The translations under genes and the position numbers were made by a program. Shown one piece after another: positions 57,464 to 64,000 of a stretch of DNA of 64,000 nucleotides (positions are counted from its first letter, which is position 1; the number at the start of each line of letters is the position of its first letter). The DNA is taken from the NCBI GenBank assembly GCA_044892525.1, contig CM097885.1:2048001-2112000 (forward strand), written 5' to 3'. Origin of the DNA: Schmidtea polychroa (lineage: Eukaryota). The notes below the pieces were generated by a model. It searched no databases, was not told the DNA's origin, and saw only the letters and a list, made by a program, of their open reading frames with translations.

Positions 57464-58504
57464 AATGTAGTGCCTGTTGAACCTCACTGATATTTATACA
57501 GTTACCATTTAATATTCTTTTTTTTATTTGTTTAAGAGTAATAATTTTATATTTAACTGAATGCGAGTGTAATTTGTTTTAATAATGGCGATTTTAAAAT
57601 ATACAAAAAACATGCCTCCTATACTCAGACTAGAAGCAACAAACAAAATGCCATCTTATTCCGATTTAGAAGTAACAAACAAAATAATTTCTAACTACAA
57701 AAAGCAATTCAATCCACAACGACAAGCTGAATATCAACGAATACGTCAATACAATTTCCAATAACGATGCCAACTTTATGATGGAAGATGTTAAATGCAA
57801 TAAAATTGGGAACAATGTTGAATTTACAATTTACTTATTTTTCCAATTATTAGCTTGCTGCGCGGGTAGCCCCGGCACGACAGTTAATTTTAATTTGAAA
57901 TAATATTATTATAAGAACTTTTTTATTCCAATTTCACCACTGACTTTTTTTTCATTGTATGTATTAAAAAGAACTTGGAGTATATAAATCATTAAATATA
58001 TCGATGTTTTTGATATTCACGAATTTTCTGCACTGCCTTCACTTGAAAAGGGCAATACATTGATATATTTACTGATTTATAGCCTTCAAAGTCTTTAATA
58101 AATAAAATAATATTGATTTTAAAATTATCCAACAATATATTTAAAATTATCTAAAAATATATTTAAAATCATCTAAAAATCTGTTTAAAATAAGTATAAA
58201 AAAACAAAAGATATTGTTTATGATAATTTAGAAAACTAAAACTTAAATAATTACAAAATAATATAATTTGAACTAATTGATTTACTCATATCAGATAAAT
58301 TCTTGTCGTGCTAAAGCCTTTTCCAAATATTTTCTCATATGAGAAAACCACTCAATAAATAATAATAATAATAATTCTAATGTAAATTTAATTAATTCCT
58401 TAGTAGTAGGATTGGAGCTCCCCAGACCAGGAGCTCCCCGCGCCACATATACCCCCTCCCCCCCCCCGGGAAAAAAATTTTTTTTTTTAATTTTTTGTTT
58501 TAAT

Positions 58505-59530
58505 TAATTGGCCTGGCGGGCTCACACTTTTTTTCATCCCAAAAATTAATGTTCTCGTTAACAGATTTTATTGACCGATACCTCATCTTAAAGCACAGTC
58601 CAAGACCTTTCGAATGAGCTATAGGTATCATATATATCTTTAATAGTTTTAATGTTATTAACAATTGATGACCACCATCTTTTCAACGTTAAATTATTAT
58701 TATTTTCCAAAATATTATTAATTGGCCTGGCGGGCTCACACTTTTTATCATCCCAAAAATTAATGTTCCTACCAACGGATTTTATTGGACGATACCTCAT
58801 CTTAAAGCTCAGTCCAAGACCTTTCGATTGATCCATAGAAGGTATCATCATCATTAATATTGACAAAGTTATTAACAATTGATGACCACCATCTTTTCAA
58901 CGTTAAATTATTATTATTATTCAAAATATTATTAATTGGCCGGGCGGGGACATACTTTTTCTCATCCCAAAAATTAATGTTCCCATTATCCGAATTTATT
59001 AATCGATAGCTTATTTTGAAGCGTAGTCTAAGACCTTTCAATTGAGCCATAGAAGGTATCATCATCATTAACATCGGCAAAGTTATTAAAGTTTTACCGA
59101 GACCATTTTTCAAGGTCATTTATTATTTTCAAGGTCATTTAATTTTTTTTTCAAGGTCAAGGTCAAATTTTTAATAAAAGGTCAAGGTCATTTATTATTT
59201 TCAAGGTCATTTTTTTTTTTTTTTTTTTATAATTATGTGGCCGGGAGGGCCCCTACTTTTTTTCATCCCAAAAATTAATGTTCCCGCCAACAGATTTTAT
59301 TAATCAAACACTTATTTTAAAGCCCAATGCAAGACCTTTCGAATGAGCTAATGAAGGTATCATCATCATTATTATTGACAAAGTTATTAACATTTTACCA
59401 AAAATCATTTTCAAGGTCATATAATTATTAATTGGCCTGGCGGGCCCCTACTCTTTTTCATCCCAAAAATTAATGTTCCCATTATCCGACCTTTCGAATG
59501 AGCCATAGAAGGTATCATCATCATTAATAT
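58505..59530. repeat. 214-bp tandem repeat in the Maverick terminal region (about 5 full or partial copies)
   Basis: taattggcc..catcccaaaaattaatgttc at 58505, 58719 and 58933, with partial copies near 59236 and 59429. Confidence 0.9.
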
Positions 59531-59800
59531 TAACAAAGAGAATGACTCACCCAATGACTCACCCAACGATGTCTAATATTTTTAGAACGATGACTCATCA
59601 AGGTCAAGGTCAAATTTTTAATAAAAGGTCAAGGTCATTTATTATTTCCAAGGTCATTTATTTTTTCAAGGTCATTTATTTTTTCAAGGTCATTTAATTT
59701 TCAAGGTCATTTATTATTTTCAAGGTCATTTATTTTTTCAAGGTCATTTATTTTTTCAAGGTCATTTACTTTTCAAGGTCATTTAATTTTCAAGGTCATT
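59110..59800 (+). promoter_or_regulatory. Array of about 19 YCAAGGTCA motifs plus three TGACTCA motifs
   Basis: Counted by eye; clusters at 59110-59210, 59411 and 59598-59798; TGACTCA near 59543, 59555 and 59591. Regulatory role is inferred. Confidence 0.6.
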
Positions 59801-59841
59801 TATTAAAATAATTATTATTTTCTAAGTTTTTAGTTTCTAAG

Positions 59842-59913
<72 letters not shown>

Positions 59914-60037
59914 CTATCCGACAAAATATTCTGTCCCCCTATGGGTATTGCTAGCAAGGGTACTGTTTACAAAATTACTGGTAAAAATATTCAAGACAAA
60001 ACTTTCTAAATTCTAAATATTATTCTTTAAATATACA

Positions 60038-60396
60038 CTAAAATTTATTAACACATTCACATTCATCATCTCCACAGTTCATAACATTTTCAACAACATG
60101 ATCTATACAATCCCTATATACACACGGTTCAGTATCCATAAATTCCTCCATAGGTTCATCAATTTCTTGAATGCTTTCCTCATCATTTTGAGTGTTTTCT
60201 TCATCTGTTTCATCAAATTCCGAATCTTCACTCTCTGCTACCCAGTCTATATTTAATGCGTTTGTAACAGATAATATATCCGCCATTTTCACACCAGATA
60301 TTTCTGCTAATTTTTCCAATAAAAAGTTTATTATAAATTCTAAATATTAAATAATTCGATAATTAACTAATCATATTAACCTTTTTCTGTAGTCAT
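60038..60396 (-). CDS. Maverick hypothetical acidic protein, two exons (60396-60381 and 60339-60038)
   Basis: ATG ACT ACA GAA AAA G, then a 41-nt GT..AG intron (60380-60340), then in-frame EFIINFLLEKLAEISG...; acidic tract and Cys-rich C-terminus. Confidence 0.6.
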
Positions 60397-60492: not shown

Positions 60493-60912
60493 TTAAAATA
60501 ACTGTGAAAGTCTAGCAGACATAATTTTCCAAATTGGAGAATACACATCATTATTATCAACTTTATATCCTTGGATTGTAATTGTTATATACCAATTTTC
60601 GTTTTCTTTGAAACTGATTTCATCAAAGGAATCATAAAATTTTGCATATCGGTTGTTGAAAAATGCATTTTGATTGCATGATAGATTCGTATTCAACCTT
60701 TTGAAAACATCATCTATGGTTTTAATATCTAACATTGAAAGCGTGCCGGTTAAGAATTGAAATTGGGTAGGAATTAGCTTGATCGGTGACACCAATTTCA
60801 TATTGATTTCTTCTTTTAAAAAATACATTTTGTAGTTGTGGAACATTTGAACAGGTTGTACAAGTTCTGGAACTACTTTTGGTTTTTCAGTGCTTGAAAT
60901 TTTCTTGGTCAT
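60493..60912 (-). CDS. Maverick hypothetical protein, 139 aa
   Basis: Intact ATG-initiated ORF in the compact gene block; no family recognised. Confidence 0.65.
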   Translation of the reverse strand: MTKKISSTEKPKVVPELVQPVQMFHNYKMYFLKEEINMKLVSPIKLIPTQFQFLTGTLSMLDIKTIDDVFKRLNTNLSCNQNAFFNNRYAKFYDSFDEISFKENENWYITITIQGYKVDNNDVYSPIWKIMSARLSQLF

Positions 60913-61020: not shown

Positions 61021-61485
61021 TTAATTAAGTGATAATAAAAAATCTAAAAATTCTTTTCCTTCAATTATTGATTTAATTTCAGATATGATATTATCAACTA
61101 TACTTTTGTAATCAATATTTTTTATTCCAAGAATTACTATCTTACCGCTAGCGAATATATTTACACACATAGGGTTATATTTTATATATCTCAAAGCTGG
61201 AAATAATTCTGGTTCATAAAAGCATGGTATTAATTTAGCTAATTTATTTAAATTACAAGAAAAACCTATATCGGAAGTTACGGTTATCGATTGTATTTCT
61301 AAATCATAAACATTATATTCACTAGCTTTGATTATTTCCTTACACCCCATAATTCTACATTTACCAGTTTTGAAATATATTATTGGATATTTATTACTTC
61401 TATTGATAAGTTGTTGTGGTTTCCCTATTGGAAATACCATTTTTGATACATCAGTTTTTGCCCTGTAATTTATATTTGAAAGCAT
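61021..61485 (-). CDS. TATA-binding-protein-like protein encoded by the Maverick
   Basis: Two TBP-like repeats: IIYFKTGKCRIMG and FYEPELFPALRY..VNIFASGKIVILG (compare TBP YEPELFPGLIY..LIFVSGKVVLTG). Confidence 0.85.
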   Translation of the reverse strand: MLSNINYRAKTDVSKMVFPIGKPQQLINRSNKYPIIYFKTGKCRIMGCKEIIKASEYNVYDLEIQSITVTSDIGFSCNLNKLAKLIPCFYEPELFPALRYIKYNPMCVNIFASGKIVILGIKNIDYKSIVDNIISEIKSIIEGKEFLDFLLSLN

Positions 61486-61589
61486 TTTAATGAAATAATT
61501 TTAAAAACTTTGATATATATAGGTATTTAAAAACAGAGTTCATTTAAATTATCAATATAAACAATAATTATATAGTTTAAATTTAAAAA

Positions 61590-62228
61590 ATGGAATTACG
61601 AAATGATGCAGTATACCAAATCGTTGGTCCAAGTGGTAGCGGGAAAACTTTATTTGTTTGTAAATTACTAAAATCAAATTTGTTTAAAACAAAATTCAAC
61701 AATATTTATTGGCATAGGGGCGCCGACGAAGAACACGGATTGACGCAATCAAGTTTCTGTCAGTTGAAAAACATGAAAATAGTAAAGGGCTTTGATAAAA
61801 ACTGGTCAAGTCGTTTGAAGAAAGATGATGTCATCATTATCGATGATTTGTATCAAGAAGTCAATAAAGAAAAGGACTTTAATAATTTATTCACAAAAAT
61901 CAGCAGACATGTTGGTGTAACAGTTATTTTCATAACACAAAATCTATTTCATCAAGGTGGTGCACATCGAACACGTAATTTAAATGTACAATATTTAGTT
62001 ATTTTCAAGAATCCTAGAGATGCAACTGTCATTGATTTTCTTGGACGACAAGCATACCCTAATAACCGTAATTTTCTTATCAGTGCATTTCAAGATGCCA
62101 CGAAAATACCGCATGGGTATATATTTCTCGATTTCACACAACAATGCCCTGATGATATACGGGTAAAAACAGATATTTTCAACCCAAAAGGTGCCATGGT
62201 ATATAAACAAAGTTCAAAACAAAGTTGA
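61590..62228 (+). CDS. A32/FtsK-like DNA packaging ATPase
   Basis: Walker A GPSGSGKT, Walker B VIIIDD, SRH, ITQNLF, RNLNVQYLVIFKNPRD, PHGYIFLD. Confidence 0.93.
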   Translation: MELRNDAVYQIVGPSGSGKTLFVCKLLKSNLFKTKFNNIYWHRGADEEHGLTQSSFCQLKNMKIVKGFDKNWSSRLKKDDVIIIDDLYQEVNKEKDFNNLFTKISRHVGVTVIFITQNLFHQGGAHRTRNLNVQYLVIFKNPRDATVIDFLGRQAYPNNRNFLISAFQDATKIPHGYIFLDFTQQCPDDIRVKTDIFNPKGAMVYKQSSKQS

Positions 62229-62241
62229 AAACATATAAATC

Positions 62242-62736
62242 ATGTTTTCAAAAACAAGGATATCGGGTAAAAAACAACCAAAAGTTCCACCAACAACTAG
62301 TTATACTCCATCTAAAGATCTTATTACAGAAAATTTTCCTGCAATGAATCTTATTTCGAAAAATCCTAAACCTAAACCTAAAAGTAAAACCACTAAGAAA
62401 GTAAAAGTTGTTAAAAATCATCGGAGTTTCCCGTTTTTCAATACATTGTTAAAGGCACCAAGTATGAAAAGAAACAGTATTTTGCAATCATTTCCAAATT
62501 ATGTTGTCGATGATTTACTCGATATTATACTTAAAGTAGTCAAAGGCAAGATTAAAATCAGTAAATCTAAAAAGCAATTATTGAGTAAACATAGGAAACC
62601 TTTGCTATCATTAGTAAATAATAAAAATCGTCAACAAATGAGAAAAATTATATATAAACAACAAGGGGGATTTATCGGTGCATTGATACCTTTAGCAATA
62701 TCATTATTAGGTGGAATAATAGGAAGTCGATCATAA
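62242..62736 (+). CDS. Basic Maverick virion-type protein with a C-terminal GG/F site and amphipathic helix
   Basis: Lys-rich; ends QQGGFIGALIPLAISLLGGIIGSRS. Confidence 0.7.
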   Translation: MFSKTRISGKKQPKVPPTTSYTPSKDLITENFPAMNLISKNPKPKPKSKTTKKVKVVKNHRSFPFFNTLLKAPSMKRNSILQSFPNYVVDDLLDIILKVVKGKIKISKSKKQLLSKHRKPLLSLVNNKNRQQMRKIIYKQQGGFIGALIPLAISLLGGIIGSRS

Positions 62737-62797
62737 ACAATGGGTGCTAATCCTTCATTACCAGACATTAAATTTAATATTAAATCTTCTTGTTGTA

Positions 62798-63853
62798 ATG
62801 GAGAAGATTTGGACGAACCCGGAAGACGAAGCCGGTTTTGGTGGAGTGGCAAAATTAAGGAAAAGAGTTCCGAATTCGAAAAAGGAAACACAGAAGTGGT
62901 TATCAGACCAGCTTGCGTACAGTTTGAACAAACCAATGCGGAAACGATTCCCAACAAGAACATATAAAACATATGGAATAAATGATTTATGGCAAATGGA
63001 TTTGATGGAGATGATACCCTATTCGAAAATTAACAATGGGTATAAATATATTTTAACATGTATTGATGTATTCAGTCGGTTTGCCCGAGCAATACCCGTC
63101 AAGGCAAAATCTGCAGATGAAATGTCCAAAGCTGTTAATCATTTATTTAAAGATGGACATCCTAAAAACTTGCAAACTGATTTAGGTATTAATATTATTA
63201 TTTTTATTATTATTATTATTATTTTAGGTAAAGAATTCTACAACAGTAAAGTCAAGCAAATCCTCAATAAATTGAAAATAAACCATTACTCAGTACATTC
63301 TCAATACAAAGCTGCTCATGTTGAAAGATTTAACCGAACTTTGAGAGATAGATTAAAGAAATTATTCGTGCATCAAGGTAATAAAAAATGGGTATTGGTT
63401 TTACCAAAAATAATAACCAGTTATAATCACTCATCACATCAAGGACTGAATGGATTAAGGCCGATTGATATCACGTCAAAAACAATCTATTCTAAAAAAC
63501 CTGAAAAAATTACAAAACCGAAATATAAAGTAGGTGACCATGTTAGAATTAGTAAAATTAGTGCATCACCATTTATTAAAAATTTTGATACGAATTGGAG
63601 TGATGAAGTCTTTGTAATTTCAAAAATAAATACTAAACAGAATCCTGTAATGTATGTCATCAAAGACAATGATAACAATATTGTACAAGGAAAATTTTAT
63701 GAACAAGAATTACAAGTTATTCCTCCCCCAAAAGTATTTAGAATTCAGAAGATATTGAAAACTAAAAATAAAGGCAAGGATAAACAATACTATGTCAAAT
63801 GGCATGGTTATCAAAACCCATCATGGATATCAGAAAAGGATCTAGTAAAGTGA
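62798..63853 (+). CDS. Polinton retroviral-like integrase with C-terminal chromodomain; probable 42-nt intron at 63186-63227
   Basis: WQMDL, CIDVFSRF, LQTD-G-KEF, VERFNRTL, YN..H, KVGDHVRI, FYEQELQ, YYVKWHGY..SWI; first ATG at 62798. Confidence 0.95.
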   Translation: MEKIWTNPEDEAGFGGVAKLRKRVPNSKKETQKWLSDQLAYSLNKPMRKRFPTRTYKTYGINDLWQMDLMEMIPYSKINNGYKYILTCIDVFSRFARAIPVKAKSADEMSKAVNHLFKDGHPKNLQTDLGINIIIFIIIIIILGKEFYNSKVKQILNKLKINHYSVHSQYKAAHVERFNRTLRDRLKKLFVHQGNKKWVLVLPKIITSYNHSSHQGLNGLRPIDITSKTIYSKKPEKITKPKYKVGDHVRISKISASPFIKNFDTNWSDEVFVISKINTKQNPVMYVIKDNDNNIVQGKFYEQELQVIPPPKVFRIQKILKTKNKGKDKQYYVKWHGYQNPSWISEKDLVK

Positions 63854-64000
63854 ATTTTTATACTATTTTACCAAGCAATAGTTGCCCGCTTATTCATCCA
63901 GATAATCAAGCCAGTAAATTCATGGTCAATCTCCAGAATCCGATTTCTTTAAATGGTGACTGGGAAGTTGCACTGCAAGATTTTACATTCGTGTACAATA
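63823..64000 (+). CDS. Polinton minor capsid (penton-like) protein, 5' end, truncated by the window
   Basis: Manual translation MDIRKGSSKVNFYTILPSNS..PDNQASKF..L..PISLNGDWEVAL, the N-terminal pattern typical of the gene after the integrase in Polintons. Confidence 0.75.
   Translation, partial: MDIRKGSSKVNFYTILPSNSCPLIHPDNQASKFMVNLQNPISLNGDWEVALQDFTFVYN

What the first reader, a model, noticed from the sequence alone, without database searches (positions are those of the whole stretch)
61021..61485. Maverick/Polinton encodes its own divergent TBP-like protein
Seen: an intact, intronless 154-aa ORF inside the Maverick, head-to-head with the packaging ATPase across ~105 bp of TATA-rich DNA. The second repeat keeps YEPELFP and IFxSGK; the first repeat is shortened but keeps FKTGK. 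Known: in TBP the YEPE stirrup contacts TFIIB and these Phe residues intercalate into TATA DNA; TBP is not among the core Maverick genes (pPolB, integrase, ATPase, protease, capsids), although large DNA viruses carry TBP-like factors. Inference: the element may redirect host Pol II initiation to its own (late) promoters or act as a TFIIB decoy.
Basis: partly seen in the sequence, partly recalled or inferred. Interest (0 to 1): 0.9.

Follow-up and report, generated by a model that had tools for sequence, protein, structure and literature searches.

The report
Maverick-encoded minimal TATA-binding protein
A virus-like transposon present in thousands of near-identical copies in this genome carries its own stripped-down TATA-binding protein, and related elements keep it too, along with a shared TATA-like promoter word, so these elements may bring their own switch for the host's RNA polymerase II.

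Summary
Window 61021-61485 (-) is an intact 154-aa ORF lying head-to-head with an A32-type packaging ATPase across 104 bp of 88.5% A+T DNA. It sits inside a complete 16.5-kb Maverick/Polinton with 1.6-kb inverted ends and a 6-bp target duplication.

The protein is a true TBP homologue (Pfam 1.4e-15). Its AF2 model (pLDDT 94.8) superposes on the whole TBP core (Z 12.5, 141 residues). The architecture is unusual: repeat 2 is complete, while repeat 1 keeps its strands and has lost both helices.

It is not a one-off. All 150 scored genomic copies are intact. Diverged subfamilies in this genome and about 50%-identical metagenomic Polintons also carry it, usually beside the ATPase, and dN/dS is mostly 0.1-0.45.

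New here: a TATAAACAA word lies 32-47 nt before the ATPase start in 12 of 12 lineages and before other right-arm genes. It is essentially absent before the TBP-like gene itself (1 of 35), which often has a canonical TATA box instead.

Best reading (about 0.5): an element-encoded promoter-recognition factor for host Pol II, comparable to herpesviral late-gene TBP mimics. DNA binding, TFIIB contact and expression are untested. The only prior print mention found is a figure-legend label in the adintovirus paper.

The parts
58402..60042 (.). Left terminal inverted repeat of the Maverick. The element runs from window 58402 beyond the window to L032:948, which is contig C1:2106402-2122948, 16,547 bp. 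It is flanked by the 6-bp duplication TTCCTT.
   Evidence: blastn of the left end against the right end: 89% over 1419 bp, and 65 of 66 at the very tips. No ATAAAC word occurs in the TIR.
60038..60319 (-). 93-aa acidic ORF (TTG start as listed). Function unknown. Part of the left arm.
   Evidence: No Pfam match better than E 0.15 and no PHROG match. 80% identical in subfamily copy L103.
60493..60912 (-). 139-aa ORF that travels with the TBP-like gene. Probable OB-fold single-stranded-DNA-binding protein.
   Evidence: tblastn hits beside the TBP-like gene in 17 of 61 metagenomic loci. AF2 pLDDT 88.9. VIA-align: ASFV CP312R Z 7.5, DUF2815 Z 7.0, phage Enc34 SSB Z 6.8, T7 gp2.5 Z 6.4. These Z values are middling, so the assignment is tentative.
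61021..61485 (-). TBP-like gene, 154 aa. Residues 1-48 are a helix-less half repeat (four strands). Residues 60-153 are a complete TBP repeat.
61486..61589 (.). 104-bp divergent promoter region, 88.5% A+T. TATATATA at 61514-61521 lies 30-37 nt before the TBP-like ATG on the minus strand. TATAAACAA at 61556-61564 lies 33 nt before the ATPase ATG.
   Evidence: The ATATAAACAA core is invariant in the alignment of 5 subfamily copies while its flanks diverge.
61590..62228 (+). Packaging ATPase, 212 aa, Walker A motif GPSGSGKT.
   Evidence: Pfam Pox_A32 E=3.5e-7, 30.4 bits against a cut-off of 22.8. 5033 first-look candidates in the genome; all 150 scored are intact.
62202..62210 (+). TATAAACAA 39 nt before the ATG of the 164-aa ORF. 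It lies inside the end of the ATPase coding sequence.
   Evidence: A homologous word precedes this gene in 7 of 10 non-redundant lineages.
62242..62736 (+). 164-aa basic ORF of unknown function, conserved in relatives.
62798..63853 (+). Integrase with an rve core and a C-terminal chromodomain.
   Evidence: Pfam rve E=5.6e-8, 33.4 bits against a cut-off of 32.6. The Chromo match is 20.3 bits, below its cut-off of 25.1.
63799..64000 (+). Start of a 327-aa ORF that runs off the window into L031. Conserved in relatives. It precedes a 122-aa ORF and a 407-aa ORF (putative capsid module, fold not tested), followed by the 1365-aa polymerase ORF.

Best explanation
The ORF encodes a minimal TBP homologue that is a standing component of one Polinton/Maverick lineage. 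Shown: it has the TBP saddle. Repeat 2 is complete and keeps the stirrup residues E91-P92-E93-L94 and the Phe pair F95/F111. Repeat 1 keeps only its strands (with F38) and has lost helices H1 and H2. The gene is conserved under purifying selection. The element's ATPase and other right-arm genes are preceded at a fixed distance by a conserved TATAAACAA word, which the TBP-like gene's own upstream region lacks. Inferred: host TBP transcribes the TBP-like gene from an ordinary TATA box. The product then binds the TATAAACAA class of element promoters. Its altered, family-invariant DNA-facing residues read the non-canonical 3' half of that word. It recruits host TFIIB and Pol II through the retained C-terminal stirrup. 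Loss of the repeat-1 helices would remove the surfaces that (from recalled knowledge) host regulators such as TFIIA, NC2, Mot1 and TAF1 use. That would make the factor independent of TFIID-type control. In effect this is an element-specific core-promoter switch, like the late-gene TBP mimics of beta- and gamma-herpesviruses.
For: Fold and homology. Pfam TBP gives 1.4e-15. PDB phmmer gives 35 TBP sequences, the best being archaeal 2z8u at 9e-17. The AF2 model has pLDDT 94.8. All 44 Foldseek matches at E<=0.001 are TBP chains. VIA-align gives Z 12.5, rmsd 2.6 A, 141 residues, model 1-141 on TBP 6-177; 38 TBP entries score Z 10.2-12.5 and the next fold scores 6.1. hhalign against 22 canonical TBPs gives probability 99.8%.

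Conservation. All 150 scored copies lack stops, 53 are identical and 97 are 99% identical, out of 4146 first-look candidates. 97 short (about 150 aa) relatives were found. 1289 representatives match at E<=1e-3. Family-invariant residues include E91, P92, E93, F95, F111, F38, N6, R44, M46, C107 and N109.

Synteny. The gene lies with ATPase, integrase, MCP-like and PolB genes in metagenomic Polinton contigs; 13 of 61 loci hold the ATPase, and most contigs are only 1-3 kb. It is head-to-head with the ATPase in 4 of 4 diverged subfamily copies of this genome.

Selection. 24 of 25 pairs with a defined ratio have dN/dS below 0.5, mostly 0.1-0.45.

Promoter word. ATAAAC occurs at -70..-15 in ATPase 12/12, orf164 7/10, MCP-like 5/6, the 327-aa ORF 5/8, integrase 3/5, orf122 2/5, orf139 5/18 and the TBP-like gene 1/35. 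Background is 3.3% per window, and the antisense word is near zero. The consensus from 39 instances is T-ATAAAC-A-A. This element has 9 ATAAACAA against 3.1 expected (9 of 1000 simulations reach 9), and all 9 are co-oriented with the local genes. The TBP-like gene's own upstream has TATAWAW in 18 of 35 against a 7.6% background.
Against: No experiment or RNA evidence exists. No run is on record as RNA, and the contigs laid cover genes, spacers and TIR alike. Binding to DNA, TFIIB or Pol II was not tested, and the complex predictor was unavailable.

TATAAACAA contains TATAAA in 26 of 39 instances, so host TBP alone could serve these promoters.

Several instances lie inside upstream coding sequence: the ATPase C-terminus, the orf122 C-terminus and the integrase chromodomain. 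Protein constraint could preserve the word there. Only the ATPase case (12/12) is clearly non-coding.

The word sits only 32-47 nt before the ATG. That implies very short leaders if initiation is about 30 nt downstream.

One of the four intercalating Phe positions is not Phe (by-eye alignment puts invariant P23 there).

Between the two closest subfamilies of this genome the gene shows 4 synonymous against 10 non-synonymous changes (ratio 0.6, too few to test). One metagenomic pair gives 1.14 (2 against 9).

All loci were found through the TBP-like gene, so I could not ask whether Polintons without it lack the word.
Confidence: 0.5

Rival explanations
1. Decoy or repressor. The protein occupies TATA boxes or titrates TFIIB without supporting initiation. 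It would dampen host transcription or keep the element's own late genes silent until a signal arrives.
For: The TFIIB-contacting stirrup is retained while half of the convex surface is gone. A protein that binds DNA and TFIIB but cannot take further partners could act negatively. Thousands of intact copies coexist with a viable host, which would fit self-restraint.
Against: A fixed-distance word specific to the element's own genes is what a positive promoter element looks like. A pure decoy needs no conserved, altered DNA-facing residues such as N6, R44, M46, C107 and N109. No data on expression or effect exist.
Confidence: 0.12
2. A DNA-bending accessory for replication or packaging rather than transcription. 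The TBP saddle would bend A+T-rich DNA to help protein-primed initiation or genome packaging.
For: Its most constant neighbour is an OB-fold SSB-like gene (17 of 61 loci; fold). It often abuts the packaging ATPase. Its position in the element is not fixed; it lies after the MCP-like gene in L055, L066 and L067. RepDE-type replication initiators share the fold remotely (Z 6.1).
Against: Sequence similarity is to bona fide TBPs, with the E-P-E-L-F stirrup invariant. A mere bending protein would have no reason to keep that. The terminal repeats, where protein-primed replication starts, hold no ATAAAC word. The word tracks gene starts and gene orientation.
Confidence: 0.13
3. Host TBP serves all the element's TATA-type promoters. 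The TBP-like protein has another nuclear role, for example at Pol III or Pol I type promoters or as a chromatin or silencing antagonist. The promoter word is then an ordinary strong TATA box.
For: 26 of 39 instances read TATAAAC, which contains the canonical TATAAA. The host has several TBP paralogues of its own.
Against: 13 of 39 instances lack the leading T (GATAAAC or CATAAAC). The conserved part extends 3' into C-A-A (36/39 and 30/39), which a canonical TATA box does not require. The TBP-like gene's own promoter uses a different, canonical box.
Confidence: 0.15
4. A captured host gene fragment riding along without function.
For: TBP is a host gene family, and the protein looks truncated.
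Against: It is only 25% identical to a host TBP paralogue, and the best matches are archaeal TBPs. It is conserved at about 50% identity across Polinton lineages with dN/dS mostly 0.1-0.45. There are 19 invariant residues in 38 sequences. All 150 scored copies are intact.
Confidence: 0.02

Closest known systems
Cellular and archaeal TATA-binding protein (Pfam PF00352)
   Same: Homologous sequence and fold. It has the saddle, the YEPELFP stirrup and the IFxSGK strand. The model aligns over the whole TBP core at Z 12.5.
   Different: Only 154 aa. Repeat 1 has no helix H1 or H2. Many DNA-facing positions differ and are fixed within the family; the mapping to yeast TBP residues is by eye and from memory. 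It is encoded by a mobile element. It is 22-32% identical to solved TBPs and 25% identical to a host paralogue.
Late-gene TBP mimics of beta- and gamma-herpesviruses (KSHV ORF24, EBV BcRF1, HHV-6 U58 family)
   Same: In concept, a nuclear DNA virus that relies on host Pol II brings a TBP-fold factor for a non-canonical TATA-type word on its own late promoters. The function of that family is taken from the abstracts listed (PMC12529657, PMC13345323) and from memory.
   Different: No membership. BFVD matches to U58 and BcRF1 are weak (E 3.4e-3 and 1.8e-2, 11-12% identity) and those proteins are 577-1005 aa. The herpes proteins contact Pol II directly. Here the TFIIB-type stirrup is kept, which points to a more TBP-like route.
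TBP-like proteins of giant viruses (Nucleocytoviricota: Heterosigma akashiwo virus, mimivirids, marseilleviruses, asfarvirus B263R, iridoviruses)
   Same: Virus-encoded TBP-fold proteins. They are the best BFVD hits (E 2e-7 to 1e-3).
   Different: Those are two-repeat proteins of 186-550 aa that work with a virus-encoded RNA polymerase. They are 8-22% identical here, further than cellular TBPs. This element encodes no RNA polymerase.
[quoted passage not shown] 2021, PMC8502044, Fig. 5 legend)
   Same: A TBP-like gene drawn in a Polinton-related virus genome map.
   Different: Only a legend entry. The text of section 3.4 (read in full) and the one supplementary file held as text say nothing more. 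The figure itself is not held, so I cannot tell which virus carries it or whether it is the short form. No architecture, conservation or promoter analysis is given.
Poxviral TBP/TFIIB-like factor VITF-3 and early factor VETF
   Same: Atypical viral TBP-like promoter recognition modules (abstract listing, PMC12917281). The VETF large subunit appears at E 1.5e-2.
   Different: They serve the poxviral polymerase in the cytoplasm. There is no detectable sequence relationship here.

Membership tests
TBP (PF00352) | Sequence match to the TBP repeat profile above Pfam's gathering score | tested here: met
   57.3 bits against a cut-off of 22.9, E=1.4e-15. Only one stretch matches (residues 62-135, repeat 2).
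TBP (PF00352) | Two complete tandem repeats, each S1-H1-S2-S3-S4-S5-H2 | tested here: not met
   The model has no helix in residues 1-59. hhalign shows a 17-column deletion at H2 of repeat 1 and leaves the first 25 residues unaligned. VIA aligns 141 residues across a 172-residue TBP span.
TBP (PF00352) | Continuous saddle-shaped beta sheet contributed by both halves | tested here: met
   In the predicted model only. Strands are 2-10, 25-28, 35-38, 42-48, 60-72, 88-90, 97-100, 107-111 and 115-121. Residues 1-141 superpose on whole TBP cores at rmsd 2.3-2.9 A.
TBP (PF00352) | Two pairs of intercalating phenylalanines (yeast F99, F116, F190, F207; numbering recalled) | tested here: inconclusive
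   F38, F95 and F111 are invariant in 38 sequences and align with three of the four (for repeat 2). The fourth position has no Phe; by-eye alignment places invariant P23 there.
TBP (PF00352) | C-terminal stirrup residues that contact TFIIB (yeast E186, E188, L189; recalled) | tested here: met
   E91, P92 and E93 are invariant and L94 is at least 90% conserved. Actual TFIIB binding was not tested (unavailable).
TBP (PF00352) | Binds and bends TATA DNA and nucleates a pre-initiation complex | not testable with these tools
   Only correlative evidence: a conserved TATAAACAA word before element genes.
Maverick/Polinton | Long terminal inverted repeats and a 6-bp target-site duplication | tested here: met
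   TIRs of about 1.6 kb, 89% identical, tips 65/66 identical, flanked by TTCCTT on both sides.
Maverick/Polinton | Retroviral-type (rve) integrase | tested here: met
   Pfam rve 33.4 bits against a cut-off of 32.6, plus a sub-threshold chromodomain.
Maverick/Polinton | [quoted passage not shown] | tested here: inconclusive
   No polymerase family in Pfam at E<=0.01 and no PDB sequence match. The 1365-aa ORF shows NNLYG, NSLYGK and GDTDS motifs by eye (motif names recalled). It is 46-54% identical to the large ORF of related contigs.
Maverick/Polinton | A32/FtsK-type packaging ATPase | tested here: met
   Pox_A32 30.4 bits against a cut-off of 22.8.
Maverick/Polinton | Double jelly-roll major capsid protein, minor capsid protein and adenain-like protease | not tested
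   The 407-aa and 327-aa ORFs are conserved in relatives but have no Pfam match and were not folded. No protease ORF of 90 aa or more lies between the 407-aa ORF and the polymerase in this copy.
Herpesviral late-gene TBP mimic (ORF24/UL87/BcRF1) | Detectable structural or sequence relationship closer than to cellular TBP | tested here: not met
   BFVD E 3.4e-3 and 1.8e-2, 11-12% identity, against cellular TBPs at E 5.6e-9.

The most novel reading that the evidence does not exclude
A lineage of Polintons runs a two-tier transcription programme of its own on host Pol II. A canonical TATA box drives a minimal TBP made of one and a half repeats. That TBP then reads a private core-promoter word, TATAAACAA, before the packaging, integrase and capsid-module genes. 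Because it has shed the repeat-1 helices, it is blind to the host's TBP regulators (TFIIA, NC2, Mot1, TAF1). It would be the smallest natural TBP known that still spans the saddle. It would also be the first promoter-recognition system described for Mavericks that does not depend on a giant virus.
Probability: 0.3. Interest if true: 0.8.

Novelty: new variant of a known kind. Interest (0 to 1): 0.62.

Why it matters
How Mavericks/Polintons express their genes is essentially unknown. For virophages and many polinton-like viruses, the promoter words described so far are those of a helper giant virus. That is what the papers listed are about, and I saw only their listings. An element-encoded TBP, together with a conserved promoter word at a fixed distance from gene starts, gives a concrete and testable handle on autonomous Maverick transcription in the nucleus. 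It would extend the 'viral TBP for late genes' strategy from herpesviruses and giant viruses down to 15-20 kb elements.

For transcription biochemistry, a natural TBP that keeps the whole DNA-binding sheet and the TFIIB stirrup but lacks both helices of one repeat amounts to a deletion experiment done by evolution. It bears on which TBP surfaces are dispensable.

For genome biology, the element is enormously successful here, with thousands of near-identical intact copies, so whatever controls its expression matters to this host.

Tried and rejected
RNA evidence. The look-up of sequencing runs listed no holder on record as RNA. I laid four runs guessed to be RNA. X1 covers all 30 bins, including spacers and TIR, in short fragments, so it may be DNA. 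Nothing can be said on expression, starts or strand.

Complex prediction. 

orf139 as a transcription partner. Rejected in favour of an SSB-like OB fold. The Atlas gave no usable hit.

IMG/VR. The TBP-like alignment found one locus, and it encodes an ordinary two-repeat 182-aa TBP in a 44.7-kb viral contig. The ATPase alignment found none. So I could not compare Polintons that lack the gene.

Within-genome dN/dS. The 30 loci were chosen for 100% protein identity, so their near-zero diversity in the gene is a selection artefact (1 variable column against 3-18 in neighbouring segments). I did not use it. The window against L103 gives too few changes.

Polymerase identity by Pfam and PDB sequence search: no match.

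Deep phylogeny against host, TRF and viral TBPs: not attempted. The shared repeat is about 80 residues, and the library proteins carry no organism names.

Earlier findings of this scan: three look-ups, nothing.

Literature. Searches found no paper that analyses a Polinton or Maverick TBP. 8 papers hold both 'TBP' and 'polinton' and 6 hold 'TBP' and 'mavericks'. Of these only the adintovirus paper and its preprint concern such a gene; I judged the rest by title and abstract start only. The one supplementary file of PMC8502044 held as text has no 'TBP' or 'TATA'. Subscription journals and Repbase entries are outside the library.

Script slips: missing import; time limit. Both were redone.
Full report
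**The observation**

One search lists an ATG-to-TAA ORF at 61021-61485 on the minus strand, 154 aa. The next ORF is on the plus strand, 61590-62228, 212 aa with Walker A motif GPSGSGKT. It matches Pox_A32 at 30.4 bits against a cut-off of 22.8.

**The surrounding element**

The window ends inside the element, so I fetched the next 20 kb of the contig. Window 58402-60042 is an inverted copy of L031:9467..L032:948. Identity is 89% over 1.4 kb, and the tips match at 65 of 66 positions. Both ends abut the same hexamer TTCCTT. The copy is therefore 16,547 bp with a 6-bp target duplication.

Between the ends lie:
- on the minus strand, a 93-aa acidic ORF, a 139-aa ORF and the TBP-like gene
- on the plus strand, the ATPase, a 164-aa ORF and an rve integrase with a weak chromodomain
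- then a 327-aa ORF, a 122-aa ORF and a 407-aa ORF
- then 2.7 kb without long ORFs
- then a 1365-aa ORF with family-B polymerase motifs visible by eye

Pfam and PDB sequence searches did not recognise the polymerase, and I did not fold the presumed capsid genes. Calling the element a Maverick/Polinton therefore rests on the ends, the duplication, the integrase, the ATPase and the gene order.

**What the protein is**

- Pfam TBP matches residues 62-135 at E=1.4e-15.
- phmmer against PDB returns 35 TBP sequences. The best are archaeal: M. jannaschii at 9e-17 and P. woesei at 6e-15. Yeast scores 7e-11 and human 5e-9.
- Using 37 relatives as the alignment, AF2 gives pLDDT 94.8 and pTM 0.83.
- All 44 Foldseek matches at E<=0.001 are TBP chains.
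- VIA-align gives Z 12.5, rmsd 2.6 A over 141 residues, model 1-141 on TBP 6-177. 38 TBP entries score Z 10.2-12.5, and the next fold scores 6.1.

So both halves of the saddle are there. The N-terminal half, however, consists of strands only (2-10, 25-28, 35-38, 42-48). The C-terminal half has the full S1-H1-S2-S3-S4-S5-H2 order, with helices at 79-85 and 127-153. Profile comparison with 22 canonical TBPs gives probability 99.8% and shows a 17-column gap exactly where helix H2 of repeat 1 belongs. The spacing between S1 and the next conserved block leaves no room for H1.

This is a TBP of one and a half repeats by mass that covers two half-saddles by sheet. It fails the 'two complete repeats' criterion, so I call it a TBP homologue of variant architecture, not a regular family member.

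**Residues**

In the 38-sequence alignment the invariant positions include E91, P92, E93, F95, F111, F38, N6, R44, M46, C107 and N109. N4, L94, S66 and T68 are at least 90% conserved.

Read against the repeat-2 alignments, and using my memory of yeast TBP:
- E-P-E-L is the TFIIB-contacting stirrup.
- F95, F111 and F38 correspond to three of the four intercalating Phe.
- C107 and N109 fall on the positions where altered-specificity TBP mutants map.
- R44, M46 and N6 replace small DNA-facing residues of repeat 1.

The repeat-1 mapping is by eye. The point that survives this caveat is that the putative DNA-facing side is strongly conserved within the family yet differs from canonical TBP.

**It is not a one-off**

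In the 781-Mb assembly the protein search found 4146 first-look candidates. All 150 scored are full length without stops; 53 are identical and 97 are 99% identical. The ATPase gives 5033 candidates, and all 150 scored are intact.

The Pfam search of the genome also revealed other TBP-like ORFs of 163-189 aa in many copies. I fetched four such loci. All are Mavericks with the same head-to-head pair, and their TBP-like proteins are 93.5%, 58%, 57% and 56% identical to this one. In the last two, the ATPase, integrase and MCP-like genes are 88-93% identical. So the left arm diverges faster or is exchanged between elements.

Outside this genome:
- 97 proteins of mostly 144-178 aa match at E<=1e-3. 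All come from metagenome or Logan assemblies, none from NCBI or UniRef.
- A full scan of 1.8 billion representatives gives 1289 hits, and canonical two-repeat TBPs appear only from about 1e-14 on.
- 61 metagenomic loci encode a relative.
- 13 of those loci also hold the ATPase, 17 hold the 139-aa ORF, and the two longest carry integrase, MCP-like gene and polymerase as well.
- Orientation and position vary. The gene is co-oriented with the ATPase in several loci, divergent in L078 and L045, and downstream of the MCP-like gene in L055, L066 and L067.

Nei-Gojobori ratios for pairs of complete ORFs with at least 60% identity are below 0.5 in 24 of 25 defined cases. The exception is 1.14, from 2 synonymous against 9 non-synonymous changes. 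The pairs are not independent. The window against its 93.5% relative gives 0.6 from 14 changes.

The protein is 25% identical to a host TBP paralogue, so it is not a recent capture.

**A promoter word**

I aligned the spacer of five subfamily copies. One block, ATATAAACAA, is invariant about 33 nt before the ATPase ATG, while its surroundings diverge.

In this copy ATAAACAA occurs 9 times between the inverted ends, against 3.1 expected. 9 of 1000 first-order Markov simulations reach 9. All seven plus-strand occurrences lie among plus-strand genes, and both minus-strand ones lie in the minus-strand arm. None lies in the terminal repeats.

Across all loci, after removing upstream regions at least 90% alike, ATAAAC occurs at -70..-15 as follows:

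| Gene | Lineages with the word |
|---|---|
| ATPase | 12 of 12 (positions -32 to -47) |
| orf164 | 7 of 10 |
| MCP-like | 5 of 6 |
| 327-aa ORF | 5 of 8 |
| integrase | 3 of 5 |
| orf122 | 2 of 5 |
| orf139 | 5 of 18 |
| TBP-like gene | 1 of 35 |

Background is 3.3% per window, and the antisense word occurs 0-4 times per gene. The 39 instances give T (26/39), ATAAAC, A (36/39), A (30/39). The word persists even in the most distant relatives, L084 and L085, whose ATPase is 33-37% identical.

The TBP-like gene's own upstream region instead has a canonical TATAWAW in 18 of 35 lineages, against 7.6% background. In this window that is TATATATA at 61514-61521.

Caveats:
- Several instances lie in the coding ends of upstream genes and could be kept by protein constraint.
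- The word contains TATAAA in two thirds of cases.
- The distance to the ATG implies very short leaders.

**Mechanism**

The best-supported reading is an element-encoded core-promoter factor. Steps shown are the fold, the conservation, the retained stirrup, the altered but invariant DNA face, the word and its distribution, and the contrast between the factor's own promoter and the others. Steps inferred are binding to the word, TFIIB recruitment, independence from host TBP regulators through loss of the repeat-1 helices, and an early-to-late order.

From memory, the N-terminal repeat of TBP sits on the 3' half of the TATA box. If that holds here, the remodelled half repeat would face the non-canonical A-C-A-A part. 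This is an inference only.

The rivals are a decoy or repressor, a replication or packaging bender, and an ordinary TATA box served by host TBP. The report gives their odds and the results that would refute each.

**The neighbour**

The 139-aa ORF is not a transcription partner by fold. Its model (pLDDT 88.9) resembles viral OB-fold SSBs: ASFV CP312R Z 7.5, DUF2815 Z 7.0, Enc34 SSB Z 6.8 and T7 gp2.5 Z 6.4. Foldseek gives E 0.028 at best. These are middling scores, so I treat it as a probable replication SSB.

**Comparison with what is known**

Virus-encoded TBP-fold proteins are known in giant viruses and herpesviruses. BFVD finds them, but further away than cellular TBPs: best E 2e-7 at 17% identity, with herpes U58 and BcRF1 at 3e-3 and 2e-2.

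[quoted passage not shown] 5 legend of Starrett et al. 2021. I read passages and section 3.4 of PMC8502044 and passages of its preprint, and I searched its supplement. The 2026 PLV-framework preprint lists VLTF2/3 but no TBP; I read passages only. Six full-text searches found no analysis of such a gene.

I rate the finding a new variant of a known kind: a virus-encoded TBP. What is new is the half-stripped architecture, its status as conserved Polinton equipment and the associated promoter word.

**Limits**

There is no expression evidence. The complex predictor was unavailable. There is no comparison with relatives that lack the gene, no labelled phylogeny and no access to model coordinates. 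The whole assembly could not be scanned by script, so copy numbers are first-look candidate counts, not curated counts.

Noticed in passing
whole assembly; this copy is window 58402 to L032:948: The element is extraordinarily abundant and young. There are 4146 first-look candidates for the TBP-like gene and 5033 for the ATPase, and every one of the 150 scored in each search is intact and at least 99% identical. At 16.5 kb per copy this could amount to several per cent of the 781-Mb genome. Candidate counts are not curated copy numbers.
   Followed up: partly
e.g. C3:97046683-97050554, C1:34132423-34137901, C2:147741516-147747310, C4:7828295-7830252: Several pairs of copies lie 1.5-5 kb apart in opposite orientation, with the two ATPase genes facing each other. 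These look like palindromic or truncated head-to-head insertions.
   Followed up: no
window 60493-60912 (-): The 139-aa ORF has no family match but a confident model resembling viral OB-fold single-stranded-DNA-binding proteins (ASFV CP312R, Enc34, T7 gp2.5). It accompanies the TBP-like gene in 17 of 61 metagenomic loci, upstream or downstream and on either strand.
   Followed up: partly
window 62740-62967 (+), overlapping the integrase start: A short frame opens with a peptide starting MG, ending in two adjacent cysteines and resembling an acylation signal. It is conserved in relatives (visible in the upstream regions). It is out of frame by +1 with the integrase ORF both here and in L037/L040. 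The ATAAACA word runs straight into its ATG. It could be a small overlapping gene, or an integrase N-terminus reached by a frameshift or a tiny intron.
   Followed up: no
L031:2443-5142: Between the 407-aa ORF and the polymerase this copy has no ORF of 90 aa or more, only low-complexity runs and short ORFs. No protease gene was recognised in this copy.
   Followed up: no
L031:5143-9240: The polymerase ORF starts with a tandem peptide repeat of about 8-9 aa, asparagine- and lysine-rich, repeated about 12 times. It has a sub-threshold Endonuclease VII-like zinc segment at residues 629-664 (Pfam E 4.5e-4, 20.5 bits against a cut-off of 23.6).
   Followed up: no
window 58402-60042 and L032:1-948: The terminal repeats contain internal tandem repeats of roughly 215 bp. 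These give rise to the spurious 96-105-aa ORFs listed at 58500-59119.
   Followed up: partly
C3:38.2-39.1 Mb and C1:23.8-24.2 Mb (L112, L113): At least 12 copies of an intronless 301-310-aa TFIIB-like ORF (zinc ribbon plus cyclin repeats, 38-44 bits to PF00382) lie in clusters, partly at about 7.9-kb spacing. No Maverick genes lie within 10 kb of the two inspected. The canonical TFIIB (C3:131479596) is split by tiny introns.
   Followed up: partly
C1:244962231, C1:41962680, C1:42000218, C2:182637078, C2:132285308, C1:195751380: The host itself has several two-repeat TBP-family loci, some in single open frames of 166-215 aa. This is an expanded set of TBP paralogues beside the Maverick-borne ones.
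   Followed up: no
L033:9797-10345 (IMG/VR contig of 44.7 kb): A 182-aa canonical two-repeat TBP gene in a mid-size viral contig that also encodes a 2069-aa ORF. It is unrelated in architecture to the short form.
   Followed up: no
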